Shown: one piece after another, positions 29,837-57,037 of the stretch
Numbering within the stretch: the first letter of the stretch is position 1
How the letters are laid out: each line of letters starts with the position of its first letter
NCBI GenBank assembly: GCA_005881175.1
Contig: VBEN01000015.1
Span: 1 to 57,037, forward strand
Length of the DNA stretch: 57,037 bases
Reading direction: 5' to 3'
DNA from: Chloroflexota bacterium
Lineage (GTDB): Bacteria > Chloroflexota > Dormibacteria > CF-121
Made by a program: the position numbers and the translations under genes
Notes under the pieces: model-generated
The model's database searches: none
What the model saw: only the letters and a program-made list of their open reading frames with translations
What the model was told of the DNA's origin: nothing

Positions 29837-31756
29837 ATGAACGAGGCGCTTGCGGTCCTCGCGTTTCATCAGGTCTACGATCCGGTCGGCGGCAATATCG
29901 CGCTGTCAGCGTTGATTGCTGGGGTCCCGCTCTACATCCTGTTCATCATGCTGGCCGTGCTGCGTCTGCCAGCCTGGATTTCGGCACTGGTGGCGATGCT
30001 CTCCGCGGCTGTGCTCGCTGCCCTGGTCTGGGGGATGCCGCTCGGTCTCGATGCCTCGGCCACCACCGAGGGCATGGCAAATGGCTTGTGGCCAATCAGC
30101 TGGATCGTCCTCAACGCCGTCTTCTTCCACAACCTGACCATTGCCAGTGGCGACTTCGATGTCATCCGGCGCTCTCTCACGCGTTTGACGGAAGACCGGC
30201 GTGTCCAGGCCCTGCTGGTGGCTTTCTGTTTCGGTGCTCTCATGGAAGGCATCGCCGGTTTCGGCGCCCCGGTCGCCATCTCAGCGGCGATCCTGGCCAG
30301 CCTCGGATTCGAGCCCATCAGCGCGGCCGTGCTCGCCCTGCTTGCCAATACCGCGCCGGTGGCGTTTGGATCCATCGGCATCCCGGTCGTCACCCTCGGG
30401 CTGCTGACCGCCCCCATCATCGGCCACGGCGCCGCGGATCAGACGCCTGTGACGCTGGCGCTCTCGGCCATGGTTGGCCGGCAACTCCCGGTGTTCTCCA
30501 TCATCATCCCGGCCTTCTTGATCGTCGTCCTCGCCGGCTGGCGGCGAATGCTCGAAGTCTTGCCGGCCGTGCTAGCGGCCGGGGTTGTCTTCGCCATCGT
30601 GCAATTCCTGGTCTCGAATTTCATCGGCCCCGAGCTCACCGATGTGCTCGCCGCGCTGGTGTCGATGGCGGCCGTCGCCCTGTTACTTCGGGTCTGGAAG
30701 CCGCGGACGCTCTGGGGCTTCGCCGCCGATCGCGACGCGGCGGCGGCCGGCGGCACGGCCCGGCTTCGAAGCGTCGGCGCCGCGGTTGCCCAGGCCGTCG
30801 ATCCGCCGGGCCGGATCGTGCGCGCCTACATGATGTACGTCATCCTGGTGGTGGTGATCTTGATCGGCCAGATGGGCAACCTGCCATTCTTTTCCGGTAG
30901 TCCACCCGGCAATGTCAAGAACGCGCTGCACACCCCGGCGAACATCACCGCCGACTTCAAGTGCGGCCAGCCGGCATACAAGCTTTGTCCCAATCCATGG
31001 ATCGGCCCCAGTCCGACGAAGGACGCGGGCGCCTTCAAGTTTCCGTTCTGGCGGTTCCAGTGGCCCGGCAGCTACAGCGGCACCTCGGCCAAGCCCAAGC
31101 CCGAGATTTTCCAGGAACCGAAGATTGTCACCAAGTCCACGCCATATCCCGTCACCTTCACCTGGGACTTCCTGTCGGCGGCCGGTAGCCTGGTGCTCTT
31201 TGCGTGCATCTTCGCCTTCATCGTGATGGCGATCCGAGGTGCGCCGTTGCGGCTGTTCTTTACGACCTATGGACGCACGCTGCGCCAGCTGGCCCTCCCC
31301 ATCATGACCATCGCGTTCATCCTGGGGATTGCCGCGGTCATGAACTTCTCCGGCATGACGTCCACCCTTGCGTTACTGATGGCGAATGCTGGCGGATTCT
31401 TCCCCTTCTTCTCTGCCGTCATCGGCGCGCTGGGCGTCTTCTTGACCGGGAGCGACACCGCATCGAACACGCTGTTCGGCCCGATGCAGGCGATCACCGC
31501 CAAGCAGATCGTGATCGGCGGGCACCACCTCAACCCAATCCTGACCGCCGGGACGAATTCCTCCGGTGGCGTGATGGGCAAAATGATCAGCCCCCAGAAT
31601 CTGTCCGTCGGGGCGGCGGGTGTCAACCGGGTAGGCGCGGAGGGCGAGATCTTCCGCCGCACTATCGGCTATAGCCTGATCCTCACGGCCGCCGTCGGCA
31701 TCGTCGCCATGATCGAGGTCTACCTGATCCCGGGGATCATCCCAACGCTCAGTTAG
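29837..31756 (+). CDS. lctP: L-lactate/glycolate permease (LctP family)
   Basis: 639 aa polytopic protein with GFGAPVAI and a TGSDTASNTLFG motif. It is longer than I recall for typical family members. Confidence 0.9.
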   Translation: MNEALAVLAFHQVYDPVGGNIALSALIAGVPLYILFIMLAVLRLPAWISALVAMLSAAVLAALVWGMPLGLDASATTEGMANGLWPISWIVLNAVFFHNLTIASGDFDVIRRSLTRLTEDRRVQALLVAFCFGALMEGIAGFGAPVAISAAILASLGFEPISAAVLALLANTAPVAFGSIGIPVVTLGLLTAPIIGHGAADQTPVTLALSAMVGRQLPVFSIIIPAFLIVVLAGWRRMLEVLPAVLAAGVVFAIVQFLVSNFIGPELTDVLAALVSMAAVALLLRVWKPRTLWGFAADRDAAAAGGTARLRSVGAAVAQAVDPPGRIVRAYMMYVILVVVILIGQMGNLPFFSGSPPGNVKNALHTPANITADFKCGQPAYKLCPNPWIGPSPTKDAGAFKFPFWRFQWPGSYSGTSAKPKPEIFQEPKIVTKSTPYPVTFTWDFLSAAGSLVLFACIFAFIVMAIRGAPLRLFFTTYGRTLRQLALPIMTIAFILGIAAVMNFSGMTSTLALLMANAGGFFPFFSAVIGALGVFLTGSDTASNTLFGPMQAITAKQIVIGGHHLNPILTAGTNSSGGVMGKMISPQNLSVGAAGVNRVGAEGEIFRRTIGYSLILTAAVGIVAMIEVYLIPGIIPTLS

Positions 31757-31769
31757 CAGACACGTTGCT

Positions 31770-31806
31770 CCCTCCCCCCTTGCGGGGGAGGGTCGGGGTG
31801 GGGGGG
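31770..31806 (+). other. GC hairpin (9-bp stem) overlapping a four-tract G-run, between lctP and glcD
   Basis: The hairpin is ccctccccc-cttgc-gggggaggg. The G-run motif is GGGGG-A-GGG-TC-GGGG-T-GGGGGGG at 31784-31806. There is no U-tract. Confidence 0.4.
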
Positions 31807-31811
31807 TAGGC

Positions 31812-33299
31812 TTGAACAGGATGGATGCGGCCACTCGCGAGCGACTGCTGGGCCGGCTTCGCGCCGTCGTCGGCGACCGCTACGCCTTTGCCGATCCCTA
31901 TGAAGTCCGGCTCTACCAGTACGATGCCAGCCCCGAGACGGCGCTGCCTGACGTTGTCGTGATTCCTGGAACGGCCGCCGAGGTGGCGCAGGTAGTCAAG
32001 ATCTGCGCCGATGCGGAGGTGCCGATCACCGCCCGCTCCGCCGCCAGCAGCCTGGCCGGCGGGACGGTGCCGGTCCAGCGCGGTGTCGTGATCACCTTCG
32101 CCAGGATGGATCGGATCCTGGAGATCGACGCCGACAATCTACGCGCGGTGGTGGAGCCCGGCGTCGTCAATCTATCCCTGAGCCAGGCGCTGCGGCCGCA
32201 CGGCTATTACTACGTTCCGGACCCATCCAGCCAGGGCGCCTGCACCATCGGCGGCAACGTCGGTACCAACGCCGGGGGTCCCCATACCCTCCTCTATGGC
32301 GTCACCGTCAACCACGTGACCGGGCTCGAGCTTGCATTGGCGTCTGGCGAACTCGTCCAGGTCGGCGGACGCAAGGCCGGTAGCGCGAGCGGATACGACC
32401 TGACCGGATTGTTTGTCGGGTCGGAGGGCACCATGGGGATCGCTACCAAGATCTGGGTCAAGATCCAGCCGCTCCCGCCGGTGCAGAAGACGCTGATGGC
32501 GGTGTACCCGGATGTCGAAACCGCCAGTAACGCCGTTTCCGCCATCGTGCGGAGTGGCATCCTTCCAGCAGCCATCGAGATGATGGACAAACTCTCGATC
32601 CAGGCGATCGAGGCCGCCTCCCATGCCGGCTATCCACTGGATGCCGGCGCCGTCCTCCTCCTGGAGGTCGATGGCATTCCAGAGCTGGTCGAGGAATTGG
32701 GGGAGCGGATGGCGAAGGTCTGCCGCGAGAGTGGGGCGAGTGAGGTTCGCGTCGCCAAGGACGAGGCTGAGCGCCAGGCACTGTGGAAGGGACGCAAAGG
32801 AGCGTTCTCGGCGATGGGCCGGTTATCGCCGGACTTCTACGTCATGGACGGCGTCGTGCCCCGCACCAAGTTGCCCGAAACGCTGGCAAAAATCGATGCC
32901 ATCAGTGCCCGTACCGGCTACAAGATCTGCAACGTCTTTCACGCGGGCGACGGCAACCTGCATCCCCTCGTGCTGTTCGACGCGTTCAAGCCCGGCCAGT
33001 ACGAGGCCGTCCTTCGGATCGGCGACGAGATCTTGAAGCTGTGCGCGGACGCCGGCGGATCGGTGACCGGGGAGCACGGAATCGGGCTGGAGAAGCGGGA
33101 GAACATCCGATACATCTTTTCGGACGATGATCTCGAGGTGATGGATCGGATCCGCCATGTGTTCGATCCCCACGGCCTGATGAATCCAGGAAAAGTCTTC
33201 CCGGGCGAAGTGGTCGAGGGCTCGGCGCCATCGAGAGCGCCGGACCATGCACCACGACGGGCGGCCAACGTCGCGGGCGGGGACGAAATATGGGTCTGA
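31812..33299 (+). CDS. glcD: Glycolate oxidase / D-lactate dehydrogenase FAD-linked subunit GlcD
   Basis: FAD-binding PCMH domain plus a FAD-oxidase C-terminal domain (GGSVTGEHGIGLEK). ATG 31821 is an alternative start. Confidence 0.9.
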   Translation: MNRMDAATRERLLGRLRAVVGDRYAFADPYEVRLYQYDASPETALPDVVVIPGTAAEVAQVVKICADAEVPITARSAASSLAGGTVPVQRGVVITFARMDRILEIDADNLRAVVEPGVVNLSLSQALRPHGYYYVPDPSSQGACTIGGNVGTNAGGPHTLLYGVTVNHVTGLELALASGELVQVGGRKAGSASGYDLTGLFVGSEGTMGIATKIWVKIQPLPPVQKTLMAVYPDVETASNAVSAIVRSGILPAAIEMMDKLSIQAIEAASHAGYPLDAGAVLLLEVDGIPELVEELGERMAKVCRESGASEVRVAKDEAERQALWKGRKGAFSAMGRLSPDFYVMDGVVPRTKLPETLAKIDAISARTGYKICNVFHAGDGNLHPLVLFDAFKPGQYEAVLRIGDEILKLCADAGGSVTGEHGIGLEKRENIRYIFSDDDLEVMDRIRHVFDPHGLMNPGKVFPGEVVEGSAPSRAPDHAPRRAANVAGGDEIWV

Positions 33300-34552
33300 A
33301 CGCGCGCGTGGCGGCACTGCCCGGGCATGAGATCACGGTCGAAGAACAGCAACCGTTTCGTGTCGACGATCTGCTGCCGTCCAGGGTGGTGCGTCCGGCT
33401 GATGCGCAGGACGCGGCGCGCGGACTGCGGCTCTGTGACCTGGCCCCCACCGCCGTCGTGATCTGGGGCGGCGGAACGCAGATGCGGCTTGGCGCCGCGC
33501 CGCGACGCTATGAGGTCGCCCTCTCGACGGAACGGATGAGCCGCTTGCTGGAGTATGAGCCCGCCGACCTTACCTGCCGGGTCGAGGCTGGTATGCGACT
33601 GCGAGACTTGCAGGAGGCGCTGCTGGCGCAGGGGCAGCGTCTTCCGCTGGAGCCGCCTCATCCGGATCGCGCCACGGTCGGTGGGATGCTGGCGGCGAAC
33701 GCCAATGGGCTCGGGCGCGCGCGCTACGGCACAGTCCGCGACTGGGTGATCGGGATTGCGGTCGCCTATCCGTCGGGAAAGCTGGCCCGAGCCGGTGGCA
33801 AGGTGGTGAAGAACGTCGCCGGCTATGACCTGATGAAGCTGCACATCGGCGCGCTTGGCACGCTCGGCGTCATTGCTGAGGTGAACTTCAAGGTTCAGAC
33901 TCGACCGCAGGTCGAGGCGACGCTCATCGCCCACCTCGACACTCCGGCAGCCGCAGTCGACACGGGAACAGCGCTGGCACGCCAGTATCTCGCGCCGGCG
34001 GCCGCCGTGGTGCTCGACCAGAGCGCGCTGAAGGATTGCGGGATGACCGCTGACTGGCGATGGACACTCGCCCTAAAGTTCGAAGGGTATGCCCGCGAAG
34101 TCGAGGCGGCGCGGGACAAGGCCACCAGCCTCATCCGCGCGGCCGGGGGCCGAGTGGAGGGCGACGACGTTCCGTCGCGCTTTTGGCACGCTGCCCGGGA
34201 CTGGTCGGCGCCCGATGGGGACCTGGTCGTCGTGCGCGCCATCGTTCCCTTGACGGCCATCCACGCGATCTTCGGTGTTCTGCCGGAGGATTCCCAGGTG
34301 ATGGCCCAGCCTGCCGCAGGCCTGGTCGACGTGCGGGTCCCGGCGGCTTTCGCAGCATCGATCCTGCGGCGGCTGCGAACCGCTGGCGGCGACCAGGGCC
34401 AGGTCATCGTGGCGGCGGCGCCGGCCGCGGTCAAAAAGGAACTCGACGTCTGGGGACCGCCCCCGCCAGGCTTTCCGATCATGCGCGCGCTCAAACAGGC
34501 CCTTGACCCGAACGGCATCTTGAACCCCGGGCGGTTCGTTGGTGGGATCTAA
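33290..34552 (+). CDS. glcE: Glycolate oxidase FAD-binding subunit GlcE
   Basis: Second PCMH-type FAD domain (KNVAGYDLMKLHIGALGTLGVI). Overlaps the glcD stop. Confidence 0.8.
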   Translation: MGLNARVAALPGHEITVEEQQPFRVDDLLPSRVVRPADAQDAARGLRLCDLAPTAVVIWGGGTQMRLGAAPRRYEVALSTERMSRLLEYEPADLTCRVEAGMRLRDLQEALLAQGQRLPLEPPHPDRATVGGMLAANANGLGRARYGTVRDWVIGIAVAYPSGKLARAGGKVVKNVAGYDLMKLHIGALGTLGVIAEVNFKVQTRPQVEATLIAHLDTPAAAVDTGTALARQYLAPAAAVVLDQSALKDCGMTADWRWTLALKFEGYAREVEAARDKATSLIRAAGGRVEGDDVPSRFWHAARDWSAPDGDLVVVRAIVPLTAIHAIFGVLPEDSQVMAQPAAGLVDVRVPAAFAASILRRLRTAGGDQGQVIVAAAPAAVKKELDVWGPPPPGFPIMRALKQALDPNGILNPGRFVGGI

Positions 34553-34558
34553 CCACCG

Positions 34559-35917
34559 ATGACCGAGCTGGCCACCCTCGATTTCAAGCGGCAAATCGAC
34601 CGCGACGGTGTACCGAGCCCGGCGGCGGGCATCGACATGGACCTGGTGCGCGACTGCATCCACTGCGGACTCTGCCTCCCGAAATGTCCTACCTTCCGAA
34701 TCCTGCATCACGAGGGCGACAGCCCGCGCGGACGCATGTGGCAGATCAAAGAAGCCGCGCTCGGGTTGGTGGCCTTCGACGACCCGCGATTCCAGGCGCA
34801 CGTCTATCAATGCTTTAACTGTCGAGCCTGCGAGACGGCCTGCCCTTCGGGTGTCCAGTTCGGATCGGTGATGGAGATGGCCCGCGCGCTGACCCCGCCA
34901 CAGAACCGACGGGATCGGATGGTGCGAGCCATCCTCCTCAACGGATTGTTGCCGCATCCCCGACGCCTGCGGGTCACCGGCTGGTTCTACCGCGCGGCGC
35001 GCGCGGCGCGCCTTCCGGGTCTGTTGCGCCGCACCGGCGCCTGGAAGGTGCTACCGCTCGGCAAGTTCGCGGCGTTCCCGCCGGTCGGCGACAGCGCGCC
35101 GCGCCAGCCGCGGTTGCCGGCGTTGACCCCGGCGGAGGGAACACGCCGCGCCCGCGTCGGCCTGCTGACCGGGTGCATCCAGGACGAGATGTTCCATGGC
35201 ACGAATCGGCGCACGGCACTGGCCCTGGCGCGCAACGGTTGCGACGTGGTCGTGCCGGACGCGCGGCTCTGCTGCGGTGCCCTGGCTTCGCATGCTGGCG
35301 AGGCGCAAACGGCGGAGCGGCTCGCGGCGCGTACCATGGATGCCTTTACCGGCCTGCAGCTCGATGCCGTCGTCGTCAACGCCGCGGGCTGTGGCTCGAA
35401 CATGAAGGAGTACGAGCTCCAGCTCCGCAATGACGCGCAGCGGCGCGAGGCGGGCGCCGCTTTCTCGCGAACGGTCAAAGATGCCTCGGAATTCCTCGTG
35501 GAGCTGGGTCTCCGCCCGCCCGCCCGACGGATCACATTGCGGGTCGCTTACCAGGATCCGTGCCACCTGGTGCACGGCCAGAAGGTGCATCAACAGCCGC
35601 GTCAGGCGTTGACGATAATCCCCGGCCTCGAGCTGGTGGAGATGAAGGAGTCCGACTGGTGCTGCGGCTCCGCCGGGGTCTACAACCTGACACACCCTGA
35701 GATCTCCGAGGCGGCGCTCGCCTCGAAGGTGGGGCATATCATCGACTCGGGCGCGCAGGTGATCGCCTCAGCCAATCCCGGCTGCATCCTGCAGATTTCG
35801 ATGGGACTGCAGCGGGCCGGCCGCGACATCCCCGTCGTGCATGTCATGGACCTGCTCGGTTGGGCCTACGGCGACGAGGGGCAGGAGCCGCCCATCGTCC
35901 GCCGGGCCATGGCGTGA
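34559..35917 (+). CDS. glcF: Glycolate oxidase iron-sulfur subunit GlcF
   Basis: Contains CIHCGLCLPKCP and CFNCRACETACP, plus two CCG domains (RLCCGAL, DWCCGSAG). Confidence 0.85.
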   Translation: MTELATLDFKRQIDRDGVPSPAAGIDMDLVRDCIHCGLCLPKCPTFRILHHEGDSPRGRMWQIKEAALGLVAFDDPRFQAHVYQCFNCRACETACPSGVQFGSVMEMARALTPPQNRRDRMVRAILLNGLLPHPRRLRVTGWFYRAARAARLPGLLRRTGAWKVLPLGKFAAFPPVGDSAPRQPRLPALTPAEGTRRARVGLLTGCIQDEMFHGTNRRTALALARNGCDVVVPDARLCCGALASHAGEAQTAERLAARTMDAFTGLQLDAVVVNAAGCGSNMKEYELQLRNDAQRREAGAAFSRTVKDASEFLVELGLRPPARRITLRVAYQDPCHLVHGQKVHQQPRQALTIIPGLELVEMKESDWCCGSAGVYNLTHPEISEAALASKVGHIIDSGAQVIASANPGCILQISMGLQRAGRDIPVVHVMDLLGWAYGDEGQEPPIVRRAMA

Positions 35918-37097
35918 GTGGGGCCGCCCTCGCCGAGCCCCGTCCGTTCGAAGATCCCTGGCTGGACGATCTGGCCGGTCAGATCTGGTCGAAGCCGGAG
36001 TTCTCGATGGTGCCGATCGATTACGAAGCCGTGCCCCGGGGACCATACAGCGGCGCGCGACTCGACGAGCGCGGGCAACGCGTTGTCTTCTGCGGAATCC
36101 CGTCCGATTACGGCACCGCATTCCTGCTGCACCTGATCGGGAAACGCGTCAACATCGTGGCGGCCGTCTGTAGCACACGATGGCAGCGAACCCACCCCAA
36201 GACGGACCTGATCGCGCGAATTGCCGGCCACCTCGGCCGTCCCGTCGAGATCACGGCCAATGCCAATGCCGAAACCTTTGTGCGTTCGCTGCGCGCCTAT
36301 CAGCCTGACCTGGTCGTGATGGCCAGCTTCGACCAGATCCTGGCATCGGACACACTCGCCGTCCCGTCTCGGGGATGGTTGAATATCCATCCCTCGCTCT
36401 TGCCTCGGTGCGCGCCTATCAGCCTGACCTGGTCGTGATGGCCAGCTTCGACCAGATCCTGGCATCGGACACACTCGCCGTCCCGTCTCGGGGATGGTTG
36501 AATATCCATCCCTCGCTCTTGCCTCGGCACCGGGGGCCCGAGCCCATTTACTGGACGATCGCGAACGGCGACCGCGAGGCGGGGATCACCGTCCACCTCA
36601 CGGAGCCTCGGATCGATGCCGGTCCGATCCTTGCGCAGCGCCGTGTGGACGTTTTCGACGGCGAGACCGCTGGCAGTCTCAGCAAGCGGCTGGTTGCGGA
36701 AGGCCTGTCGGCGCTTGACGAGACGCTCGATGGCGTGAGCTCGGGTGGGGCAAAGCCAGTCGCGAATGAATCTGAAGCCGCGAGCTACGAAGGTCCCGTT
36801 CGCCAGATTGGAATCGACTGGGATCAGCCGTTCGCGCAGATCGATCGCCTGGTGCGTGCCGGCCATCCCGATCAGCCCCCCTACTTCACCTATCGCGGTC
36901 GTCGCCGGTACATCTACGCGGTTCGACGTGTCAAGTCGGATGCCATCAGCGAAGCGACTGGGGCAGGGCCCCGAGCGCCGGCCCCGTGGGTGGGCGGGCC
37001 CGGGGACGAGATGCTGGCCATCGTCCGTTACAACTCGAAAGCACCGGCCGCGGCTGCGACCGGCCGTATAATGGGTCTCACATGGCTCAGGAAATGA
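35914..37097 (+). pseudogene. Formyltransferase-family gene (Fmt-like N- and C-terminal domains) frameshifted by a 119-bp tandem duplication
   Basis: Track ORFs 35860-36438 and 36375-37097 both encode RAYQPDLVVMASFDQILASDTLAVPSRGWLNIHPSLLPR. Deleting one repeat copy gives one 1065-nt (354-aa) ORF from GTG 35914, which overlaps the glcF stop as GTGA. The NIHPSLLPRHRG catalytic motif is present. Confidence 0.8.
36290..36527. repeat. Perfect 2 x 119-bp head-to-tail tandem duplication
   Basis: Segments 36290-36408 and 36409-36527 are identical base-for-base on manual comparison. The flanking bases differ at both ends. Confidence 0.97.
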
Positions 37098-37474
37098 TCG
37101 AACAGGATACCCAGCTGATCAGCATCTCCGACTCCGCCCTGACCCAGCTACGCGATCTCCTGCAGAAGCAGGGGCGGCCGGAGATGGGCTTGCGCGTCTT
37201 CGTCCAACCGGGCGGCTGCTCGGGCATGTCGTACGGAATGGGCTTCGAGGATCGGCCCGAGGAAGGCGATGCCATCAGCGATGTTGGCGGCGTACGGCTG
37301 TTCGTCGACTCGGTCAGCGCCCGCTATATCAAGGGGGCCGAGATCGACTTCGTGGACAGCCTGATGGGTGGCGGTTTTACCGTCCACAATCCGAACGCGG
37401 TCTCGAGCTGCTCATGCGGTAGCTCGTTCGACACCGGCGGTGACGCCGGCACCGCCCGCGGCTGCAGCCACTAG
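37082..37474 (+). CDS. iscA: HesB/IscA-family Fe-S cluster insertion protein
   Basis: Contains LRVFVQPGGCSGMSYGM and the C-terminal CSCGSSF. ATG 37082 overlaps the end of the formyltransferase-like ORF. Confidence 0.85.
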   Translation: MAQEMIEQDTQLISISDSALTQLRDLLQKQGRPEMGLRVFVQPGGCSGMSYGMGFEDRPEEGDAISDVGGVRLFVDSVSARYIKGAEIDFVDSLMGGGFTVHNPNAVSSCSCGSSFDTGGDAGTARGCSH

Positions 37475-37607
37475 GCAAGCGCACACGGCGAAGGGCGGCG
37501 TGGCCGCTGGTAGCTCTCCTTAGCGCAACAGCCTGCGCGAAAATGCCTGATGGCCTGCGTCGAAACATGAGTGCGGTCCGCCGCGGTTTGTCCCCCTAAA
37601 CGATGGC

Positions 37608-37636
37608 TTGACCGTGACGCGCTTCCAGATTACGCT
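37608..37636 (+). promoter_or_regulatory. Putative sigma-70-type promoter, TTGACC-17nt-TACGCT
   Basis: The hexamers and 17-nt spacer were read directly. It sits about 20 nt upstream of an AAGGGAG SD and ATG 37657. Confidence 0.3.
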
Positions 37637-37656
37637 GAAGCCCCTCAAGGGAGCCT

Positions 37657-38082
37657 ATGCCAACCCAACCCCGCGTCCTCATGGTTGAAGATCATCCGGA
37701 TATTGCCGACCTCTACCAGCTGAAGTTGCAGCTCGAAGGGTACCGAGTCGCGGTGGCATCAAACGGCATGACCGGCCTGCAGTTGGCCCGCGAGCTCAAA
37801 CCTGATGTCGTCTTGCTCGATGTTCACGTCCCCGTGCTGGATGGGCTGCAGCTCCTGGCTGCGCTTCGGGCCGATGAGGGGACCCGTGACACCCCGGTCG
37901 TCGTCTGTAGCGAGGACGACAATCCGCAACTGATCCAGGAGGCTCGGCGGCTGGAGGCCGCCGCATATCTGGTCAAGGCGCGGCTGCTGCCCAGCGGGCT
38001 GAGCCAGAAAATCGGCGAGGTGCTGCGTCATCGCGGTGCCTTCCTGGCCGACGCTCGCGCCGACGCCCTGCAAGCGTCCTGA
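37657..38082 (+). CDS. Single-domain (CheY-like) response regulator
   Basis: REC domain with VLMVEDHPD, acceptor Asp in VVLLDVHVP, and a conserved K in YLVKA. No output domain. Confidence 0.85.
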   Translation: MPTQPRVLMVEDHPDIADLYQLKLQLEGYRVAVASNGMTGLQLARELKPDVVLLDVHVPVLDGLQLLAALRADEGTRDTPVVVCSEDDNPQLIQEARRLEAAAYLVKARLLPSGLSQKIGEVLRHRGAFLADARADALQAS

Positions 38083-38132
38083 CGCCGAAAGTCTTAGCGC
38101 CTTCTTAACTCGGCGTCATCTGCTTATGAGAC

Positions 38133-38993
38133 TTGGTGCGCGATGATGGGTTCGTGGCCAGCGAACCGCTTTCCCTGGAAGCGCCGCCGCCGCCTGCTCC
38201 ACCGCCTGCGGGCGGTCGCGAACGTCGGCGCGCTCCGGTCGCGCTGGCCGCGGCGCTGGTGGTCGTCGGCGGCCTCGCCGGCGGGGCACTCGGCGCGGAG
38301 GTGATGCTCAGTCGCACGGCCGCGCCGGTTGCCGCAACCAGCCCTGCATCGAGCGCCACCGTCGCCCCGGCGCAAACGCCAACCTCCGCCGCGGCCCTCT
38401 ACAAGCAAGCGGTCCCCGGCATCGTCACGATCACGACAGAGGTCGCGCGTCGTGGGCAGGTGGGGGAGGGCACCGGCTCCGGCATCGTGCTGGACCAGAA
38501 CGGCGACATCCTGACCAATGCGCACGTGGTCGCCGGCGCCAACCAAATCCAGGTAACCTTCAACGACGGCCGCAGCGCGGCGGGGACGCTCGTGAGCGCC
38601 AATTCCAAGGCGGACCTGGCGGTGGTTCGGGTGTCGGTGGCGGCCGCCAGCCTGCATCCAGTGCCGCTGGGGAATTCCGACACCGTCCGGGTCGGCGACG
38701 CCGTTTATGCCATCGGGGCACCCTTCGGGCTGGCCGGCTCGATGTCGGCCGGGATTGTCTCCGGCCTCAACCGGACTGACCAGGGGTCAGGACGCAGCGG
38801 CCTCATCCAGACCGACGCCCCGATCAATCCTGGCAACTCGGGCGGTGCGCTGCTCAACACCCAGGGCCAGGTCGTCGGCGTCAACGACTCGATCGAGAGC
38901 CCGGTTGCCGGTAATGTCGGCGTCGGCTTCGCCATCCCGGTCAACGTCGTCAAGCAGCTGCTCGCCTCCCTGGAGGGCGGCGCGAACCAGTAA
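38133..38993 (+). CDS. Membrane-anchored trypsin-like serine protease (S1C, HtrA-like, no PDZ domain)
   Basis: Catalytic triad context is TNAHVV, ADLAVVRV and GNSGGALL. There is an N-terminal TM segment. TTG start. Confidence 0.85.
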   Translation: MVRDDGFVASEPLSLEAPPPPAPPPAGGRERRRAPVALAAALVVVGGLAGGALGAEVMLSRTAAPVAATSPASSATVAPAQTPTSAAALYKQAVPGIVTITTEVARRGQVGEGTGSGIVLDQNGDILTNAHVVAGANQIQVTFNDGRSAAGTLVSANSKADLAVVRVSVAAASLHPVPLGNSDTVRVGDAVYAIGAPFGLAGSMSAGIVSGLNRTDQGSGRSGLIQTDAPINPGNSGGALLNTQGQVVGVNDSIESPVAGNVGVGFAIPVNVVKQLLASLEGGANQ

Positions 38994-39002
38994 CTCGGTC
39001 GT

Positions 39003-39527
39003 CTACGGCTCGAGAACGTGGACGGCGCTCAGGTTTCGATACAGTTCGTCAAAATCGAGCCCGTAACCGACGACGAACTGATTGGGAATATCGAAGCCCT
39101 TGTAGGCCATCGGGACCGGTGTGATCCGTCGGTCCTGCTTGTTCAGTAAAACGCAGAGCTTCAGGGACGCGGGTCGGTGGCGTTGCACATGCTCAAACAA
39201 GAATGACGTGGTCAAACCCGTGTCGATGATGTCCTCGACCATCAGGACGTCACGTCCGGCGACGTCCATGGTCAGGTCCTTCAGAAGCTGAACGTGTCCC
39301 GATGACTCGGTCCCGGCGCCATAGCTGCTGACCGCGACGTAATCGAAGTTCACTGGCACCGTGATGTGGCGGCTGAGGTCGGTGGCGAAGCAGACAGAGC
39401 CTTTGAGCACAGGCAGAAGGATCAACGGCCGGCTGATGCCGGCGTAGTCTCGGGATATGTCCGCAGCCATCTCCAGGACGCGCCGCTGGATGGCGTCGGC
39501 GCTGACCAACTCCCGCCCCAGTTTCAA
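39003..39527 (-). CDS. hpt: Hypoxanthine phosphoribosyltransferase
   Basis: PRPP-binding motif VLMVEDIIDTGLT. 174 aa. Confidence 0.9.
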   Translation of the reverse strand: MKLGRELVSADAIQRRVLEMAADISRDYAGISRPLILLPVLKGSVCFATDLSRHITVPVNFDYVAVSSYGAGTESSGHVQLLKDLTMDVAGRDVLMVEDIIDTGLTTSFLFEHVQRHRPASLKLCVLLNKQDRRITPVPMAYKGFDIPNQFVVGYGLDFDELYRNLSAVHVLEP

Positions 39528-39555
39528 TTCGGTGAGAACGATGGCATGTCCAACT

Positions 39556-40071
39556 CTACCCGGTCGGGGCCACCAGGAAGATCCAGATATCCCAGGTGAC
39601 GTGGCTGATGATAAGGGGGGTCAGGCGGCCTTCGCGCGCGTAAAGCGCACCCCAGAAGAGGCCGGCGGTGGCGGCCGCCCCGGTCAGCGTCAGGTTCTTC
39701 GATACTAGATGAACACCGCCGTAGAACGACGAGGTCATCAGCATCCCGCGCAGCCGGCCGAATTTGCGCTGCAAAGTGTGCTGGATCAGGCCGCGCCAGA
39801 AGAGCTCTTCGCCCGGTCCGATCACGAGCGCCAGCGCCGCGGCGATGGCCGGTCGGGAAGAGGCCGTTCGCAGCGCGTAAATCCCGGCAATCTCGCCCGC
39901 CCCGCCCGGCATGATCCGACGAGCCATCGGATCGCCCACACGAAAGATTCCGTAGAGCGCCGCGGCCGAGCCGAAGCCTATCGCAAGGTCACGCCCGCGC
40001 GGCCGTTCGAGCCGCAGCGCCGGTTCACGCAGGAGCGCGTAAGCACCGAGGCCGCCAACGCCGAGCGTCAT
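39556..40071 (-). CDS. CPBP-family intramembrane glutamic endopeptidase (CAAX protease-like)
   Basis: Contains GPGEELFWRG, FYGGVHL and HVTWD. ATG 40071 was chosen because the longer track ORF runs into the upstream gene, so the N-terminus may be under-called. Confidence 0.7.
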   Translation of the reverse strand: MTLGVGGLGAYALLREPALRLERPRGRDLAIGFGSAAALYGIFRVGDPMARRIMPGGAGEIAGIYALRTASSRPAIAAALALVIGPGEELFWRGLIQHTLQRKFGRLRGMLMTSSFYGGVHLVSKNLTLTGAAATAGLFWGALYAREGRLTPLIISHVTWDIWIFLVAPTG

Positions 40072-54006: not shown

Positions 54007-56097
54007 GTGCCATTCGAGCTCACTTTGCCGTTTTCGACGATCGTCGGTCAAGAGCAGATGAAGAGGGCGCTCCTGCTCAATGCCATCGACCCGGCGATCG
54101 GCGGCGTGCTGATCCGCGGCGATCGGGGTACCGCGAAGTCGTCGGCCGTGCGCGCCCTGGCCCGGCTGCTGCCCGAGTACGAGGCTGTCGACCAGTGTCC
54201 ATACCGATGCGACCCGGCGATCCCCTCGCGCTATTGCGACGATTGCCGGCGCCGGGCGAACGTCGGGCCATTACCTTTGGTCCGGCTGCCGATGCGGATC
54301 GTGGAACTGCCGATCAACGCGTCGGAAGATCGGCTGGTCGGCTCGATCGACATCGAGGCGGCGGTCAGGGCCGGGACGCGGCGGTTCCAGCCCGGCGTGC
54401 TGGCCGAGGCCAACCGCAACCTTCTATATGTGGACGAGGTCAACCTGCTCGACGACCATCTCGTCGACGTTCTGCTGGATGCCGCGGCGATGGGGATCAA
54501 CGTCGTCGAACGCGAGGGCATGTCAGTTGTGCACCCGGCGCATTTCATCCTGGTGGGGACGATGAATCCGGAGGAGGGCGAGCTTCGCCCCCAGCTGCTC
54601 GATCGGTTTGGGCTCTGCGTCGAGGTGACGACCCCTACCGACATCGACCAGCGGCTTCGCGTCATGGAGCTCGAGCGGAAATTCATCGACAACCCGCAGG
54701 CGGTTCACCGGGACGCGACACCGCAGGAGATCGAGCTCCGTCGCCAGCTGCAGGCGGCGGCGGCGCGCCTCGACAGTGTGCAGATTCCGGACGCGATCCG
54801 GGCGTTGGTTGCCCGGCTCTGCCTGGATGGTTCGGTCGCCGGCCACCGGGCTGACCTGGTCGTGGCCCGCACGGCTCGGGCGATCTGCGCCCTTCGGGGC
54901 ATGCCGCTGGTTGAGCTCGCCGACGTGCTCGAGGCGCTCGAGCTCGCGCTGGCGCACCGTCGCCGCGAGCCGGTCTCGGACAAGCAGGATCCGGCGCAGG
55001 AACTGGCCACGCGTGCCGCGGAGCAACTAGCCCAGATCCAGGCCACCACGCCGACCGAAACCGCGGAGGCCGCTCGGGGCGAGGCCACCCATCAGGAAGG
55101 CGCCTCCGGGGGAGAGTCGAATGAAGGCTGGACCACCGCCGAAGCGCGCGAGTCACCCAGCACCGAAGCGGTCGAGGTTGAGCCCGACACCGTGATCCAG
55201 CTGCGCACCTTCGCGGTCAAGAAGCTCGACCTGCCACGCGAGCGCCAGGCTCGGCGCGCGGCAGGCAAGCGTACCTCCACGAAAAGCGAGACCAAACGCG
55301 GTCGCTACGTGCGCAGTTCGCAGACGGAGAAGGTCACCGACGTCGCCTTTGATGCCACCGTCAGGGCGGCGGCCCCGCATCAGCTGCGCCGGCGGCAGGC
55401 CACACCCAACGCCCCGAATCAACTGCAGCTCGAGAGCCAGGATCTGCGCCAGAAGGTCCGCGAGCGCAAGACGGGGAATTTGATCGTCTTCGTGGTGGAC
55501 GCCTCTGCATCGATGGATGCGGAGCAGCGAATGCTGGCCACGAAAGGAGCCATCCTCTCGCTGCTCCGGCATGCTTACGTCCGCCGCGACAAGGTGGCCC
55601 TGGTCGCCTTCAGCGGGCGCAACGCGCGGGTGGTGCTGCGTCCAACCTCCAGCGTCGACCTCGCCGAGCGCCGCCTCGAGCGCCTCAACATCGGCGGCAC
55701 CACGCCGCTGACACACGGCCTTATGACGGCGTTGAAATTGATCAAGACCGAGCGACTGCGCGACCCGCGGGTCTATCCGTTGCTGGTCTTGATCAGTGAC
55801 GGCCGCGGCAACATCAGTCTCTTCGGTGAGGAGCCACTGCTCGAGGCGCAGCGCACGGCCGGTCAGATCAAGCAGGAAGGCATCCGCGCCATGGTGATCG
55901 ATTCGACGCGCGACTTCAGCAGCCAGCCCGGTTATCCCCGAAACCGCGTGACCAGTCTCTACGGCGCATATGCCTTCAACGTCTGTGGCGACCTGGCCGA
56001 GCGCCTGGGTGGTCGGTACTACGGCCTCTTCGACCTATCGCAGAGCGCGATCGTCGACAGCGTCCAGCGTGAGATGCTTAGGACGGGTTCCGCCTGA
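54007..56097 (+). CDS. chlD: ChlD/BchD-like chelatase subunit (AAA+ module with degenerate P-loop, acidic linker, vWA/MIDAS domain)
   Basis: The P-loop reads GDRGTAKS at 54118-54141. Walker B is [13 protein letters not shown]. The acidic Pro/Glu linker is followed by vWA with [13 protein letters not shown]. Confidence 0.85.
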
Positions 56098-57037
56098 TGG
56101 AGCGTTTTGTCTATCCCTTCAGCGCGATTGTCGGGCAGGACAAGATGAAGCTCGCGCTCATCTTGAACGCCATCCATCCGGCCATTGGCGGTGTGCTGAT
56201 CCGCGGCGAGAAGGGCACGGGCAAGTCGACGGCGGTGCGTGCGCTGGCCCGACTGCTGCCGGAGCTCACGGTCGTCGCTGACTGTCCTTACCGATGCGAT
56301 CCGGACGCCCCTGAGGCCCTCTGCTCGGATTGTCAGGACCGGCTGGCTGGGGGTGAGACGCTTCCCCGAGGGCGCCGGCGGATGCGAGTCGTTGAGCTGC
56401 CGATCAATGCCTCGGAAGACCGGGTAGTTGGCGCCATCGACATCGAAGCCGCGATCAAGAGCGGCGAGCGCCGCTTCGAGCCGGGCGTGCTGGCGGAGGC
56501 GAATCGCAACATTCTGTATGTCGACGAAGTCAACCTGCTCGATGACCACCTGGTCGACGTCCTGCTCGATGCTGCAGCGATGGGGGTCAACGTGGTCGAA
56601 CGCGAGGGTATTTCGATCTGGCACCCGGCACGTTTCATCCTCGTAGGCACGATGAATCCTGAAGAAGGCGATCTACGGCCACAGCTGCTGGATCGATTTG
56701 GACTGACAGTGGACGTGGAGGGCATCAAGGACATCGGCCAGCGGGTCCAGATCGTTGAGCGCCGGGAGGAATGGGAATCCGATCCCGCATCATTCAGCCA
56801 GCGGTTCGCCGAAGAGGATGCGGAGATCGGGATCCGGATCGCGGAGGCGATCGTGCGCTTCCCCCACGTCGTGATGCCGGCCGGCATCCTCAGGGCGCTC
56901 GCGGAATTGAACGTCAGCCTCCAGGTTGACGGCCACCGGGCAGACCTGGTCGGCCGCAAAGCGTCCCAGGCGCTGGCCGCGTACCGCGGCATCGCGGAAG
57001 TCGGCGTTCCCGAAGTCAACGAGGTGGCGGACATGGT
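56097..57037 (+). CDS. chlI: ChlI/BchI-like AAA+ chelatase ATPase subunit (3'-truncated by the window edge)
   Basis: My own translation gives [26 protein letters not shown]. Canonical Walker A is GEKGTGKST (56205-56231) and Walker B is [13 protein letters not shown]. The start overlaps the chlD stop as TGATG. Confidence 0.85.

What the first reader, a model, noticed from the sequence alone, without database searches (positions are those of the whole stretch)
36290..36527. Perfect 119-bp tandem duplication splits a formyltransferase-family gene
Segments 36290-36408 and 36409-36527 are identical at every base, and the flanking bases differ, so the unit is exactly 119 bp. Because 119 is not a multiple of 3, the duplication shifts the frame. 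ORF 35860-36438 ends in out-of-frame residues (CAPISLTWS*). ORF 36375-37097 re-encodes the same 38 residues (RAYQPDLVVMASFDQILASDTLAVPSRGWLNIHPSLLPR) and continues with the catalytic HRGPEPIY segment. Removing one copy restores a 1065-nt ORF. Zero divergence between copies implies either a very recent duplication, possibly reversible by recombination or slippage so that it acts as an on/off switch, or an assembly artefact. The duplicated block includes the N-x-H active-site region.
Basis: seen in the sequence. Interest (0 to 1): 0.7.

Follow-up and report, generated by a model that had tools for sequence, protein, structure and literature searches.

The report
Duplication is probably an assembly error
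The perfect 119-base duplication that splits this soil bacterium's formyltransferase-like gene is really in the deposited contig, but it is most likely a stitching error made when the genome was assembled from mixed strains, not a biological on/off switch.

Summary
Window 36290-36408 and 36409-36527 are identical and are the only tandem repeat in the window. They split a Formyl_trans_N/C gene into 174-aa and 240-aa ORFs.

The duplication is one of three coupled anomalies within 740 bp:
- the +119-bp duplication, with no junction microhomology;
- a ~390-bp block (36632-37024) that switches to a different strain haplotype;
- a 122-bp deletion at that block's right edge, which removes the gene's last 26 codons, its stop codon and 40 nt of spacer.

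The net length change is only -3 bp, so deleting one copy does not restore the native 1077-nt gene.

Ten independent metagenome contigs that are 99.8-100% identical in the flanks carry one copy. The eight of them that reach the gene's 3' end carry it intact. The intact allele is on record on 23 contigs. The duplication junction has no match in JGI metagenomes or in GTDB representative genomes.

The gene and its glcDEF / Fe-S neighbourhood are conserved intact across more than 30 Dormibacterota species. 119 equals k-1 for k=120, a step of the IDBA-UD runs used on soil from the probable source site, and is also a MEGAHIT default k. Another assembly of this population (L006) carries its own private 99-bp duplication at a haplotype switch.

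Best reading: a small strain-variant contig was misplaced during scaffolding (about 0.78). Rival: a real strain-private pseudogene (about 0.17).

The parts
36290..36408 (+). Copy 1 of the 119-bp unit. It encodes RAYQPD...GWLNIHPSLLPR, including the N-x-H active-site residues and the SLLP motif.
   Evidence: Identical to copy 2. Present exactly once, with 0 mismatches, in all 10 S1-type loci.
36409..36527 (+). Copy 2 of the 119-bp unit. Inferred to be the untrimmed start of a separately assembled piece.
   Evidence: The junction 28-mer has no match in JGI metagenome contigs or GTDB genomes.
35914..36438 (+). 5' fragment ORF (174 aa) of the formyltransferase-like gene. Its GTG start overlaps the glcF-like stop, as in the intact homologues, and it ends in 9 out-of-frame residues.
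   Evidence: Annotated protein P0141. The start position matches the 358-aa genes in L001-L010.
36375..37097 (+). 3' fragment ORF (240 aa). It lacks the first ~125 residues of the formyltransferase domain, and its last 22 residues are read-through caused by the 122-bp deletion.
   Evidence: P0121.
36528..36631 (+). Stretch after the duplication that is still 100% identical to the majority (S1) haplotype.
36632..37024 (+). Foreign-haplotype block. It is ~85% identical to S1 and a mosaic of S2a (L011) / S2b (L099) / S2a with one private SNP.
37023..37027 (+). Deletion junction (GTCCG microhomology). Relative to S1, 122 bp are missing here: the last 26 codons plus stop of the gene and 40 nt of spacer.
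   Evidence: The tail is present in all 8 S1 loci that reach it and absent from the window.
34559..35917 (+). Upstream glcF-like Fe-S subunit gene (CCG + Fer4 domains). Used as the anchor to find independent assemblies.
37082..37474 (+). Downstream HesB/IscA-type Fe-S biogenesis gene. The window's read-through ORF overlaps its start by 16 nt.

Best explanation
This is a local misassembly in a metagenome-assembled contig, not a property of a living genome. The gene's central and 3' region is a strain-diversity hot spot in a mixed soil population of Candidatus Dormibacterota, so short-read assemblers fragment there. A small piece of about 616 bp (window 36409-37024), which carries a different strain haplotype, truly overlapped the end of the left contig by 119 bp. 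It was joined end-to-end without merging that overlap, and this created the perfect tandem duplication. Because the piece was laid about 120 bp too far to the right, its far end collided with the right-hand contig and about 122 bp were lost there. The region's total length therefore stayed almost unchanged (-3 bp). Shown: the three anomalies, their coupling, their absence from every independent assembly, and the conservation of the intact gene. Inferred: the specific software step, namely an unrecognised k-1 overlap at a scaffold join.
For: (1) Ten independent contigs (ENA IDBA-style scaffolds, ENA k141 MEGAHIT contigs, JGI assemblies) encode the identical GlcF and are 99.8-100% identical to the window over most of 31001-36408 and over 37023-39914 (L005 is 99.1% on the left flank; L006 has a 95.9% block at 32895-34335). 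All ten carry one copy of the unit. Seven of them have an intact 358-aa gene called. In the other three the gene call is cut by the contig end, and one of those still reaches the 3' tail. (2) The intact S1 allele is on 23 contigs (P0143 13, P0144 10). The split products occur only on the 57,037-bp contig. (3) The duplication junction and the S1-to-S2 switch sequence have no match in 241 M JGI metagenome records or in GTDB representative genomes. (4) The duplication is coupled to a haplotype switch that starts 104 bp downstream of it and to a 122-bp deletion at the block's other edge, for a net change of -3 bp. One misplaced piece explains all three. (5) The duplication junction has no microhomology, as expected for concatenation. 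(6) Independent MEGAHIT contigs break in this same region: L008 ends 6 nt past the deletion junction and L009 ends inside the variable block. (7) 119 = k-1 for k=120, a step of the IDBA-UD series (30-200 step 10, or 40-200 step 20) used for the Angelo grassland soil MAGs to which the closest genomes belong (PMC6784897). It is also a default MEGAHIT k (my own knowledge). (8) Chen et al. 2020 (PMC7111523) describe this class of error: local assembly errors that are prominent in IDBA-UD, and duplicated sequence at scaffold joins where an overlap was not recognised. (9) Another assembly of the same population (L006) has its own private 99-bp tandem duplication (97/99) at a haplotype switch in the glcE-like gene. 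(10) The gene is intact and syntenic in more than 30 Dormibacterota species.
Against: No reads are available, so the junctions cannot be tested directly. The assembler and sample of this particular contig are not known to me, so the k-1 = 119 match is suggestive only. There are no Ns at either join, whereas the published description of the IDBA-UD error has Ns between the duplicated ends. The overlap is perfect, so a scaffolder that checked for overlaps should have merged it. The right-hand junction lies in a 5-bp microhomology (GTCCG), which has only about a 0.6% chance at a random join and is typical of real deletions. The haplotype switches inside the block occur across shared stretches of only 23-25 nt, too short for path switching in a de Bruijn graph with k>=30, so the mosaic itself may be a real recombinant haplotype.
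Confidence: 0.78

Rival explanations
1. The structure is real but strain-private: a pseudogene created by one complex recombination event. DNA from a diverged co-resident strain (S2-like) was imported. The event was anchored by homologous crossover on the left and resolved illegitimately at a GTCCG microhomology on the right, which deleted 122 bp (homology-facilitated illegitimate recombination). A template switch during repair synthesis produced the 119-bp duplication. The gene is dead in this strain.
For: The S2-like block and the 5-bp microhomology at the deletion junction fit illegitimate recombination. Mosaic alleles of this gene are common in the population (P0002, P0142, P0084, P0130). 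High recombination is reported for these meadow populations (PMC7305173). The short 23-25-nt shared stretches at the internal switches are hard to produce by graph path switching at k>=30.
Against: It needs two large indels (>100 bp) plus an import within 740 bp, while 8 kb of flanks differ from sister contigs by 0-10 SNPs. The duplication has no microhomology and is not explained by the recombination model. The near-exact length compensation (+119/-122) has no biological rationale, because the deletion lies beyond the frameshifted region. The structure is seen in no other assembly. The gene is otherwise conserved intact across the phylum.
Confidence: 0.17
2. The duplication is a reversible genetic switch. 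A recent tandem duplication turns the formyltransferase-like gene off, and RecA-mediated or slippage-mediated loss of one copy turns it back on, giving population heterogeneity.
For: Two perfect 119-bp copies would recombine readily. The duplication is frame-shifting and includes the N-x-H site.
Against: Removing one copy does not regenerate the native gene. The conserved C-terminal 26 residues (…DAVVAVRWQPVGHTHAVRPLAKQQFP) and the stop codon are deleted. The two-copy state does not recur in any of the 10 near-identical contigs or the 23 contigs carrying the intact allele, nor in JGI or GTDB scans. No relatives carry the duplication (no comparable repeat in the homologous gene in 98 loci).
Confidence: 0.03

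Closest known systems
Duplicated sequence at a scaffold join where the assembler did not recognise an end overlap (local assembly errors of IDBA-UD and other short-read assemblers; Chen et al. 2020, PMC7111523)
   Same: A perfect duplicate of a contig-end overlap. The length equals a k-related value (119 = 120-1). It lies in a strain-variable region, is private to one assembly, and breaks a gene into two CDS that then reach public databases.
   Different: The published description has Ns between the duplicated ends, and here there are none. Here the error is paired with a compensating ~122-bp loss at the other end of the misplaced piece.
Strain-chimeric contigs from mixed populations in metagenome assembly
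   Same: The flanks follow one haplotype (S1) and an internal ~390-bp block follows others (S2a/S2b). Independent assemblies break at the same place.
   Different: The shared stretches at the internal switches (23-25 nt) are shorter than typical k values, so part of the mosaic may be a genuine recombinant allele.
Homology-facilitated illegitimate recombination (HFIR) in naturally transformable bacteria (recalled from my own knowledge of the field)
   Same: A foreign-haplotype block with a homologous anchor on one side and, on the other, a short GC-rich microhomology with loss of recipient DNA.
   Different: HFIR does not produce a perfect tandem duplication 104 bp before the crossover. No independent observation of this allele exists.
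Methionyl-tRNA formyltransferase (Fmt) / ArnA-type formyltransferases (Pfam PF00551 + PF02911)
   Same: The affected gene has the Formyl_trans_N fold signature, N-x-H, a downstream Asp, the SLLPRxRG motif and a weak Formyl_trans_C match.
   Different: It scores 131-135 bits against the 201.5-bit cut-off of the Fmt equivalog. It has a ~55-residue N-terminal extension and a conserved position between glcDEF-like and Fe-S biogenesis genes. Its substrate is unknown.

Membership tests
Assembly artefact: unmerged contig-end overlap at a scaffold join | The two copies are identical and directly abutting | tested here: met
   119/119 identical, adjacent, no Ns.
Assembly artefact: unmerged contig-end overlap at a scaffold join | The junction is absent from independent assemblies of the same population | tested here: met
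   All 10 near-identical contigs carry one copy. The junction 28-mer has no match in JGI metagenomes or GTDB genomes.
Assembly artefact: unmerged contig-end overlap at a scaffold join | The duplicate length equals k or k-1 of the assembler used | tested here: inconclusive
   119 = 120-1, and k=120 is in the IDBA-UD series reported for the site's MAGs (PMC6784897). 119 is also a default MEGAHIT k (my own knowledge). The assembler of this contig is not known.
Assembly artefact: unmerged contig-end overlap at a scaffold join | A change of haplotype or source sequence accompanies the join | tested here: met
   An S1-to-S2 switch starts 104 bp after the duplication and returns to S1 at a 122-bp deletion. 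The net length change is -3 bp.
Assembly artefact: unmerged contig-end overlap at a scaffold join | No sequencing read supports the junction | not testable with these tools
   No reads are available.
Reversible duplication switch (phase variation by gain or loss of a tandem copy) | Loss of one copy restores a functional native gene | tested here: not met
   After one copy is removed, the ORF still lacks the native last 26 codons and reads through into the spacer and the next gene.
Reversible duplication switch (phase variation by gain or loss of a tandem copy) | Both states recur in the population or in relatives | tested here: not met
   The two-copy state is found only in this contig.
Formyl transferase family (PF00551/PF02911) | N-terminal formyltransferase domain above the Pfam gathering score | tested here: met
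   109.4 bits against a 26.1-bit cut-off for the one-copy reconstruction.
Formyl transferase family (PF00551/PF02911) | Catalytic Asn-x-His, downstream Asp, and SLLP motif | tested here: met
   Read directly from the sequence: WLNIHPSLLPRHRG and RIDAGPIL.
Methionyl-tRNA formyltransferase proper (NCBIfam TIGR00460 equivalog) | Score above the curated equivalog cut-off | tested here: not met
   135.3 bits (reconstruction) and 130.8 bits (intact P0143) against a 201.5-bit cut-off.
Homology-facilitated illegitimate recombination product | Foreign block with a microhomology join and loss of recipient DNA at one end | tested here: met
   S2-like block. GTCCG occurs at both deletion end-points, 122 bp apart in S1.
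Homology-facilitated illegitimate recombination product | The model accounts for all lesions at the locus | tested here: not met
   It does not explain the 119-bp duplication, which has no microhomology.

The most novel reading that the evidence does not exclude
The structure is real. One strain of an abundant soil Dormibacterota population has just inactivated a phylum-conserved formyltransferase paralogue through a single complex event (import of diverged DNA, a template-switch duplication and a microhomology deletion). This would capture gene loss by illegitimate recombination in the wild. In the most ambitious version, the perfect 119-bp duplication is a recombination-reversible null allele.
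Probability: 0.15. Interest if true: 0.35.

Novelty: not a real feature. Interest (0 to 1): 0.08.

Why it matters
The main value is as a caution. The deposited MAG contig carries a broken gene that has already entered NCBI nr as two 'proteins' (174 aa and 240 aa). A sequence-only reader could take a perfect frame-shifting duplication for a genetic switch. The case gives a practical recognition rule for this kind of artefact: a perfect tandem duplicate of k-like length, next to a haplotype switch, paired with a compensating loss nearby, and private to one assembly. If it were nevertheless real, it would be a modest example of strain-level pseudogenisation of a conserved but uncharacterised formyltransferase paralogue linked to glycolate-oxidase-like and Fe-S biogenesis genes.

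Tried and rejected
(1) Exact look-ups of the two split products in the gene-position index found nothing. The cluster look-up shows they exist only on the 57,037-bp contig. This gives no independent support and shows the index does not hold the source contig.

(2) I scanned for the window's S1-to-S2 switch (41-mer) in GTDB genomes and JGI metagenomes, hoping to find a 'clean' version of the same mosaic strain. There were no hits, so I cannot say whether the mosaic haplotype exists intact. ENA and Logan assemblies cannot be scanned by DNA pattern.

(3) I scanned for the duplication junction in both collections and found no hits. All metagenome scans are now used.

(4) I considered an exact 'overwrite at shifted coordinates' model. 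I rejected it as exact, because +119 and -122 differ by 3 bp and the block has no net indels relative to S1.

(5) I considered that the piece's start is set by the first S1/S2 SNP under k=120. I rejected this, because the first differing site (36632) lies 223 nt after the piece's start.

(6) I considered graph path switching as the cause of the internal mosaic. It is doubtful, because the shared stretches are only 23-25 nt, so the mosaic may be natural.

(7) I tried to decide whether this gene or the 37-43%-identical second group is the housekeeping Fmt. Both score below the equivalog cut-off, so this is undecided.

(8) I ran TRF over all 98 fetched loci looking for other long-period duplicates. 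Only the L006 case turned up.

Full report
**Observation.** Window 36290-36408 and 36409-36527 are identical at all 119 positions. The bases on both sides differ (36289 C vs 36408 G; 36409 T vs 36528 C), so the unit is exactly 119 bp and the junction has no microhomology. Tandem Repeats Finder reports this as the only tandem repeat in the 57,037-bp window, and the repeat finder agrees. The duplication splits a formyltransferase-family gene. The 5' ORF runs from the GTG at 35914 (or the TTG at 35860) to 36438 and ends in nine out-of-frame residues. The 3' ORF, 36375-37097, re-encodes the unit in frame and continues. After one copy is removed, the protein matches Pfam Formyl_trans_N (109 bits) and, weakly, Formyl_trans_C (24 bits). 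Its best NCBIfam match is the Fmt equivalog, but at 135 bits against a cut-off of 201.5, so it is a family member and not demonstrably the housekeeping Fmt. The window is an entire NCBI MAG contig, and the two fragments are deposited as separate proteins (P0141 174 aa, P0121 240 aa, each on a contig of 57,037 bp).

**What independent assemblies show.** The upstream glcF-like protein (34559-35917) is encoded, identical in sequence, on at least 22 other contigs. Ten were fetched: ENA scaffolds named CRIT18-1_SAMN..., ENA k141 MEGAHIT contigs and JGI assemblies. They are 99.8-100% identical to the window over most of 31001-36408 and over 37023-39914. The exceptions are L005, at 99.1% on the left flank, and L006, which has a 95.9% block at 32895-34335. 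Every one of the ten carries the 119-bp unit exactly once with 0 mismatches. In seven of them a 358-aa (1077-nt) gene is called, starting at the GTG that corresponds to window 35914. In the other three the gene call is cut by the contig end. I call this majority haplotype S1. The intact S1 protein is on record on 23 contigs (P0143 13, P0144 10). The split products are on record only on the window's own contig. A 28-mer across the duplication junction has no match in 241 million JGI metagenome records or in the GTDB representative genomes.

**The duplication is not alone.** I aligned the window, with one copy removed, to S1 (L001), to a second co-occurring haplotype S2a (L011, carrying P0001, about 90% identical to the window in the flanks) and to S2b (L099, carrying P0131). 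The pattern is as follows.
- The window is S1 up to 36631.
- From 36632 to 37024 it is only about 85% identical to S1. Instead it is S2a-like (36632 to about 36710, with one private SNP), then identical to S2b (about 36735-36827), then identical to S2a (36828-37024).
- At 37023-37027 it returns to S1 across a deletion of 122 bp relative to S1.

The two deletion end-points share GTCCG. The deleted stretch holds the last 26 codons (DAVVAVRWQPVGHTHAVRPLAKQQFP), the stop codon and 40 nt of the spacer. All eight S1 loci that reach this point have the tail, and the window has none. Its last 22 residues (YNSKAPAAAATGRIMGLTWLRK) are read-through that overlaps the start of the downstream Fe-S biogenesis gene at 37082. 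The net length change of the region is +119 - 122 = -3 bp.

**Context.** The closest genomes are Candidatus Dormibacterota MAGs, many labelled Chloroflexi bacterium CF_xx, from Angelo Coast Range Reserve grassland soil. The gene order glcD-glcE-glcF-like, formyltransferase-like, HesB/IscA-type Fe-S protein, response regulator is conserved. An intact gene of about 345-360 aa sits between glcF and the Fe-S gene in more than 30 species, down to about 60% identity. The gene is therefore under long-term purifying selection, and the window's version is an outlier. The central and 3' part of the gene is a diversity hot spot with many mosaic alleles (P0002, P0142, P0084, P0130). This fits the high recombination reported for these meadow populations (PMC7305173).

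**Most likely explanation.** One misplaced piece explains all three anomalies together. A piece of about 616 bp (36409-37024), carrying a minority haplotype, truly overlapped the left contig by 119 bp but was appended without merging the overlap. That duplicated the overlap. Being about 120 bp too far to the right, the piece's other end collided with the right-hand contig and about 122 bp were lost there, so the total length was nearly preserved.

Support for this:
- The duplication junction has no microhomology.
- Independent MEGAHIT contigs terminate in this same region. L008 ends 6 nt past the deletion junction, just before an S1/S2 SNP, and L009 ends inside the variable block.
- The MAGs from this site were assembled with IDBA-UD using k = 30-200 in steps of 10, or 40-200 in steps of 20. 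Both series include k = 120, whose neighbouring contigs overlap by 119 (PMC6784897). That IDBA neighbours overlap by k-1 is my recollection; Chen et al. give n or n-1.
- 119 is also a default MEGAHIT k (my own knowledge).
- Chen et al. 2020 describe local assembly errors unsupported by any read as prominent in IDBA-UD, and describe duplicated sequence at scaffold joins where an overlap was missed (PMC7111523).
- A different assembly of the same population (L006, JGI) has its own private 99-bp tandem duplication (97/99) in the glcE-like gene, at a point where its haplotype changes. Its junction occurs in no other locus.

**What speaks against it, and the rivals.** I cannot see reads, and I do not know which assembler made this contig. 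There are no Ns at either join. The overlap is perfect, so an overlap-aware scaffolder should have merged it. The deletion junction has a 5-bp microhomology, which has under a 1% chance at a random join and is typical of real deletions. The internal haplotype switches cross shared stretches of only 23-25 nt, too short for path switching at k>=30, so the mosaic block may be a genuine recombinant allele.

A real alternative is a single complex recombination event in one strain: import of S2-like DNA with a homologous anchor on the left, an illegitimate microhomology join on the right, and a template-switch duplication. It would leave a strain-private pseudogene. It requires two indels of more than 100 bp and an import within 740 bp, while the 8 kb of flanks differ from sister contigs by 0-10 SNPs. 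It does not explain the duplication or the length compensation. I give it about 0.17.

The on/off switch reading is poorly supported, at about 0.03. Loss of one copy would not restore the native gene, and the two-copy state is seen nowhere else.

**Verdict.** The sequence feature is real in the deposited record. The best-supported explanation is a local misassembly at a strain-variable locus (0.78). It is of low biological interest but is a useful example of how such artefacts look: a perfect tandem duplicate of k-like length, an adjacent haplotype switch, a compensating loss, and presence in only one assembly. Read mapping across 36408|36409 and 37024|37025 would settle it. PCR across the whole region would not, because the two forms differ by only 3 bp. 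Separate amplicons around the duplication and around the deletion are needed.

Noticed in passing
L006:1328-1525 (corresponds to window 34222-34320, glcE-like gene): A JGI contig of the same population carries its own private, in-frame 99-bp tandem duplication (97/99 identical), which makes the glcE-like product 453 aa instead of 420 aa. Left of the junction the contig is identical to the window for about 570 nt. Right of it there are 3 SNPs within 130 nt. The junction is found in no other locus. It is probably the same kind of assembly artefact (99 is a common assembler k).
   Followed up: partly
window 36632-37024, and proteins P0002, P0142, P0084, P0130: The central and C-terminal part of the formyltransferase-like gene is a haplotype-mosaic hot spot. 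At least three haplotypes (S1, S2a, S2b) and several recombinant combinations occur in independent assemblies, while the N-terminal half and the flanking genes are much more uniform.
   Followed up: partly
window 54007-56097 and 56094-57037: Two tandem paralogous genes for ChlD/BchD-like AAA+ (Mg-chelatase) proteins; the complete first copy also has a VWA domain. They are 76-80% identical at the DNA level (repeat families D1/D2, spacing about 2090 bp). The contig ends inside the second copy, a typical assembly break at a repeat.
   Followed up: partly
window 37064-37084: A perfect TATAAT lies only about 12 nt upstream of the ATG (37082) of the HesB/IscA-type Fe-S gene. The motif is identical in S1, S2a and S2b. 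This suggests a very short or absent leader. It survives the 122-bp deletion.
   Followed up: no
protein P0006 (383 aa, JGI): A related allele is frameshifted near its C-terminus and reads through the spacer. It ends in ...ARYNSKTPDGAATRRIMSVTWLRK, the same read-through frame and tail type as the window's 3' ORF. This is another probable sequencing or assembly error, or a pseudogene, at this locus.
   Followed up: no
loci L053-L098: Dormibacterota genomes carry a second formyltransferase-family group that is 35-43% identical to this gene. It also scores below the Fmt equivalog cut-off (118.7 bits for the L059 copy). Which of the two groups, if either, is the housekeeping Met-tRNA formyltransferase is unresolved.
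   Followed up: partly
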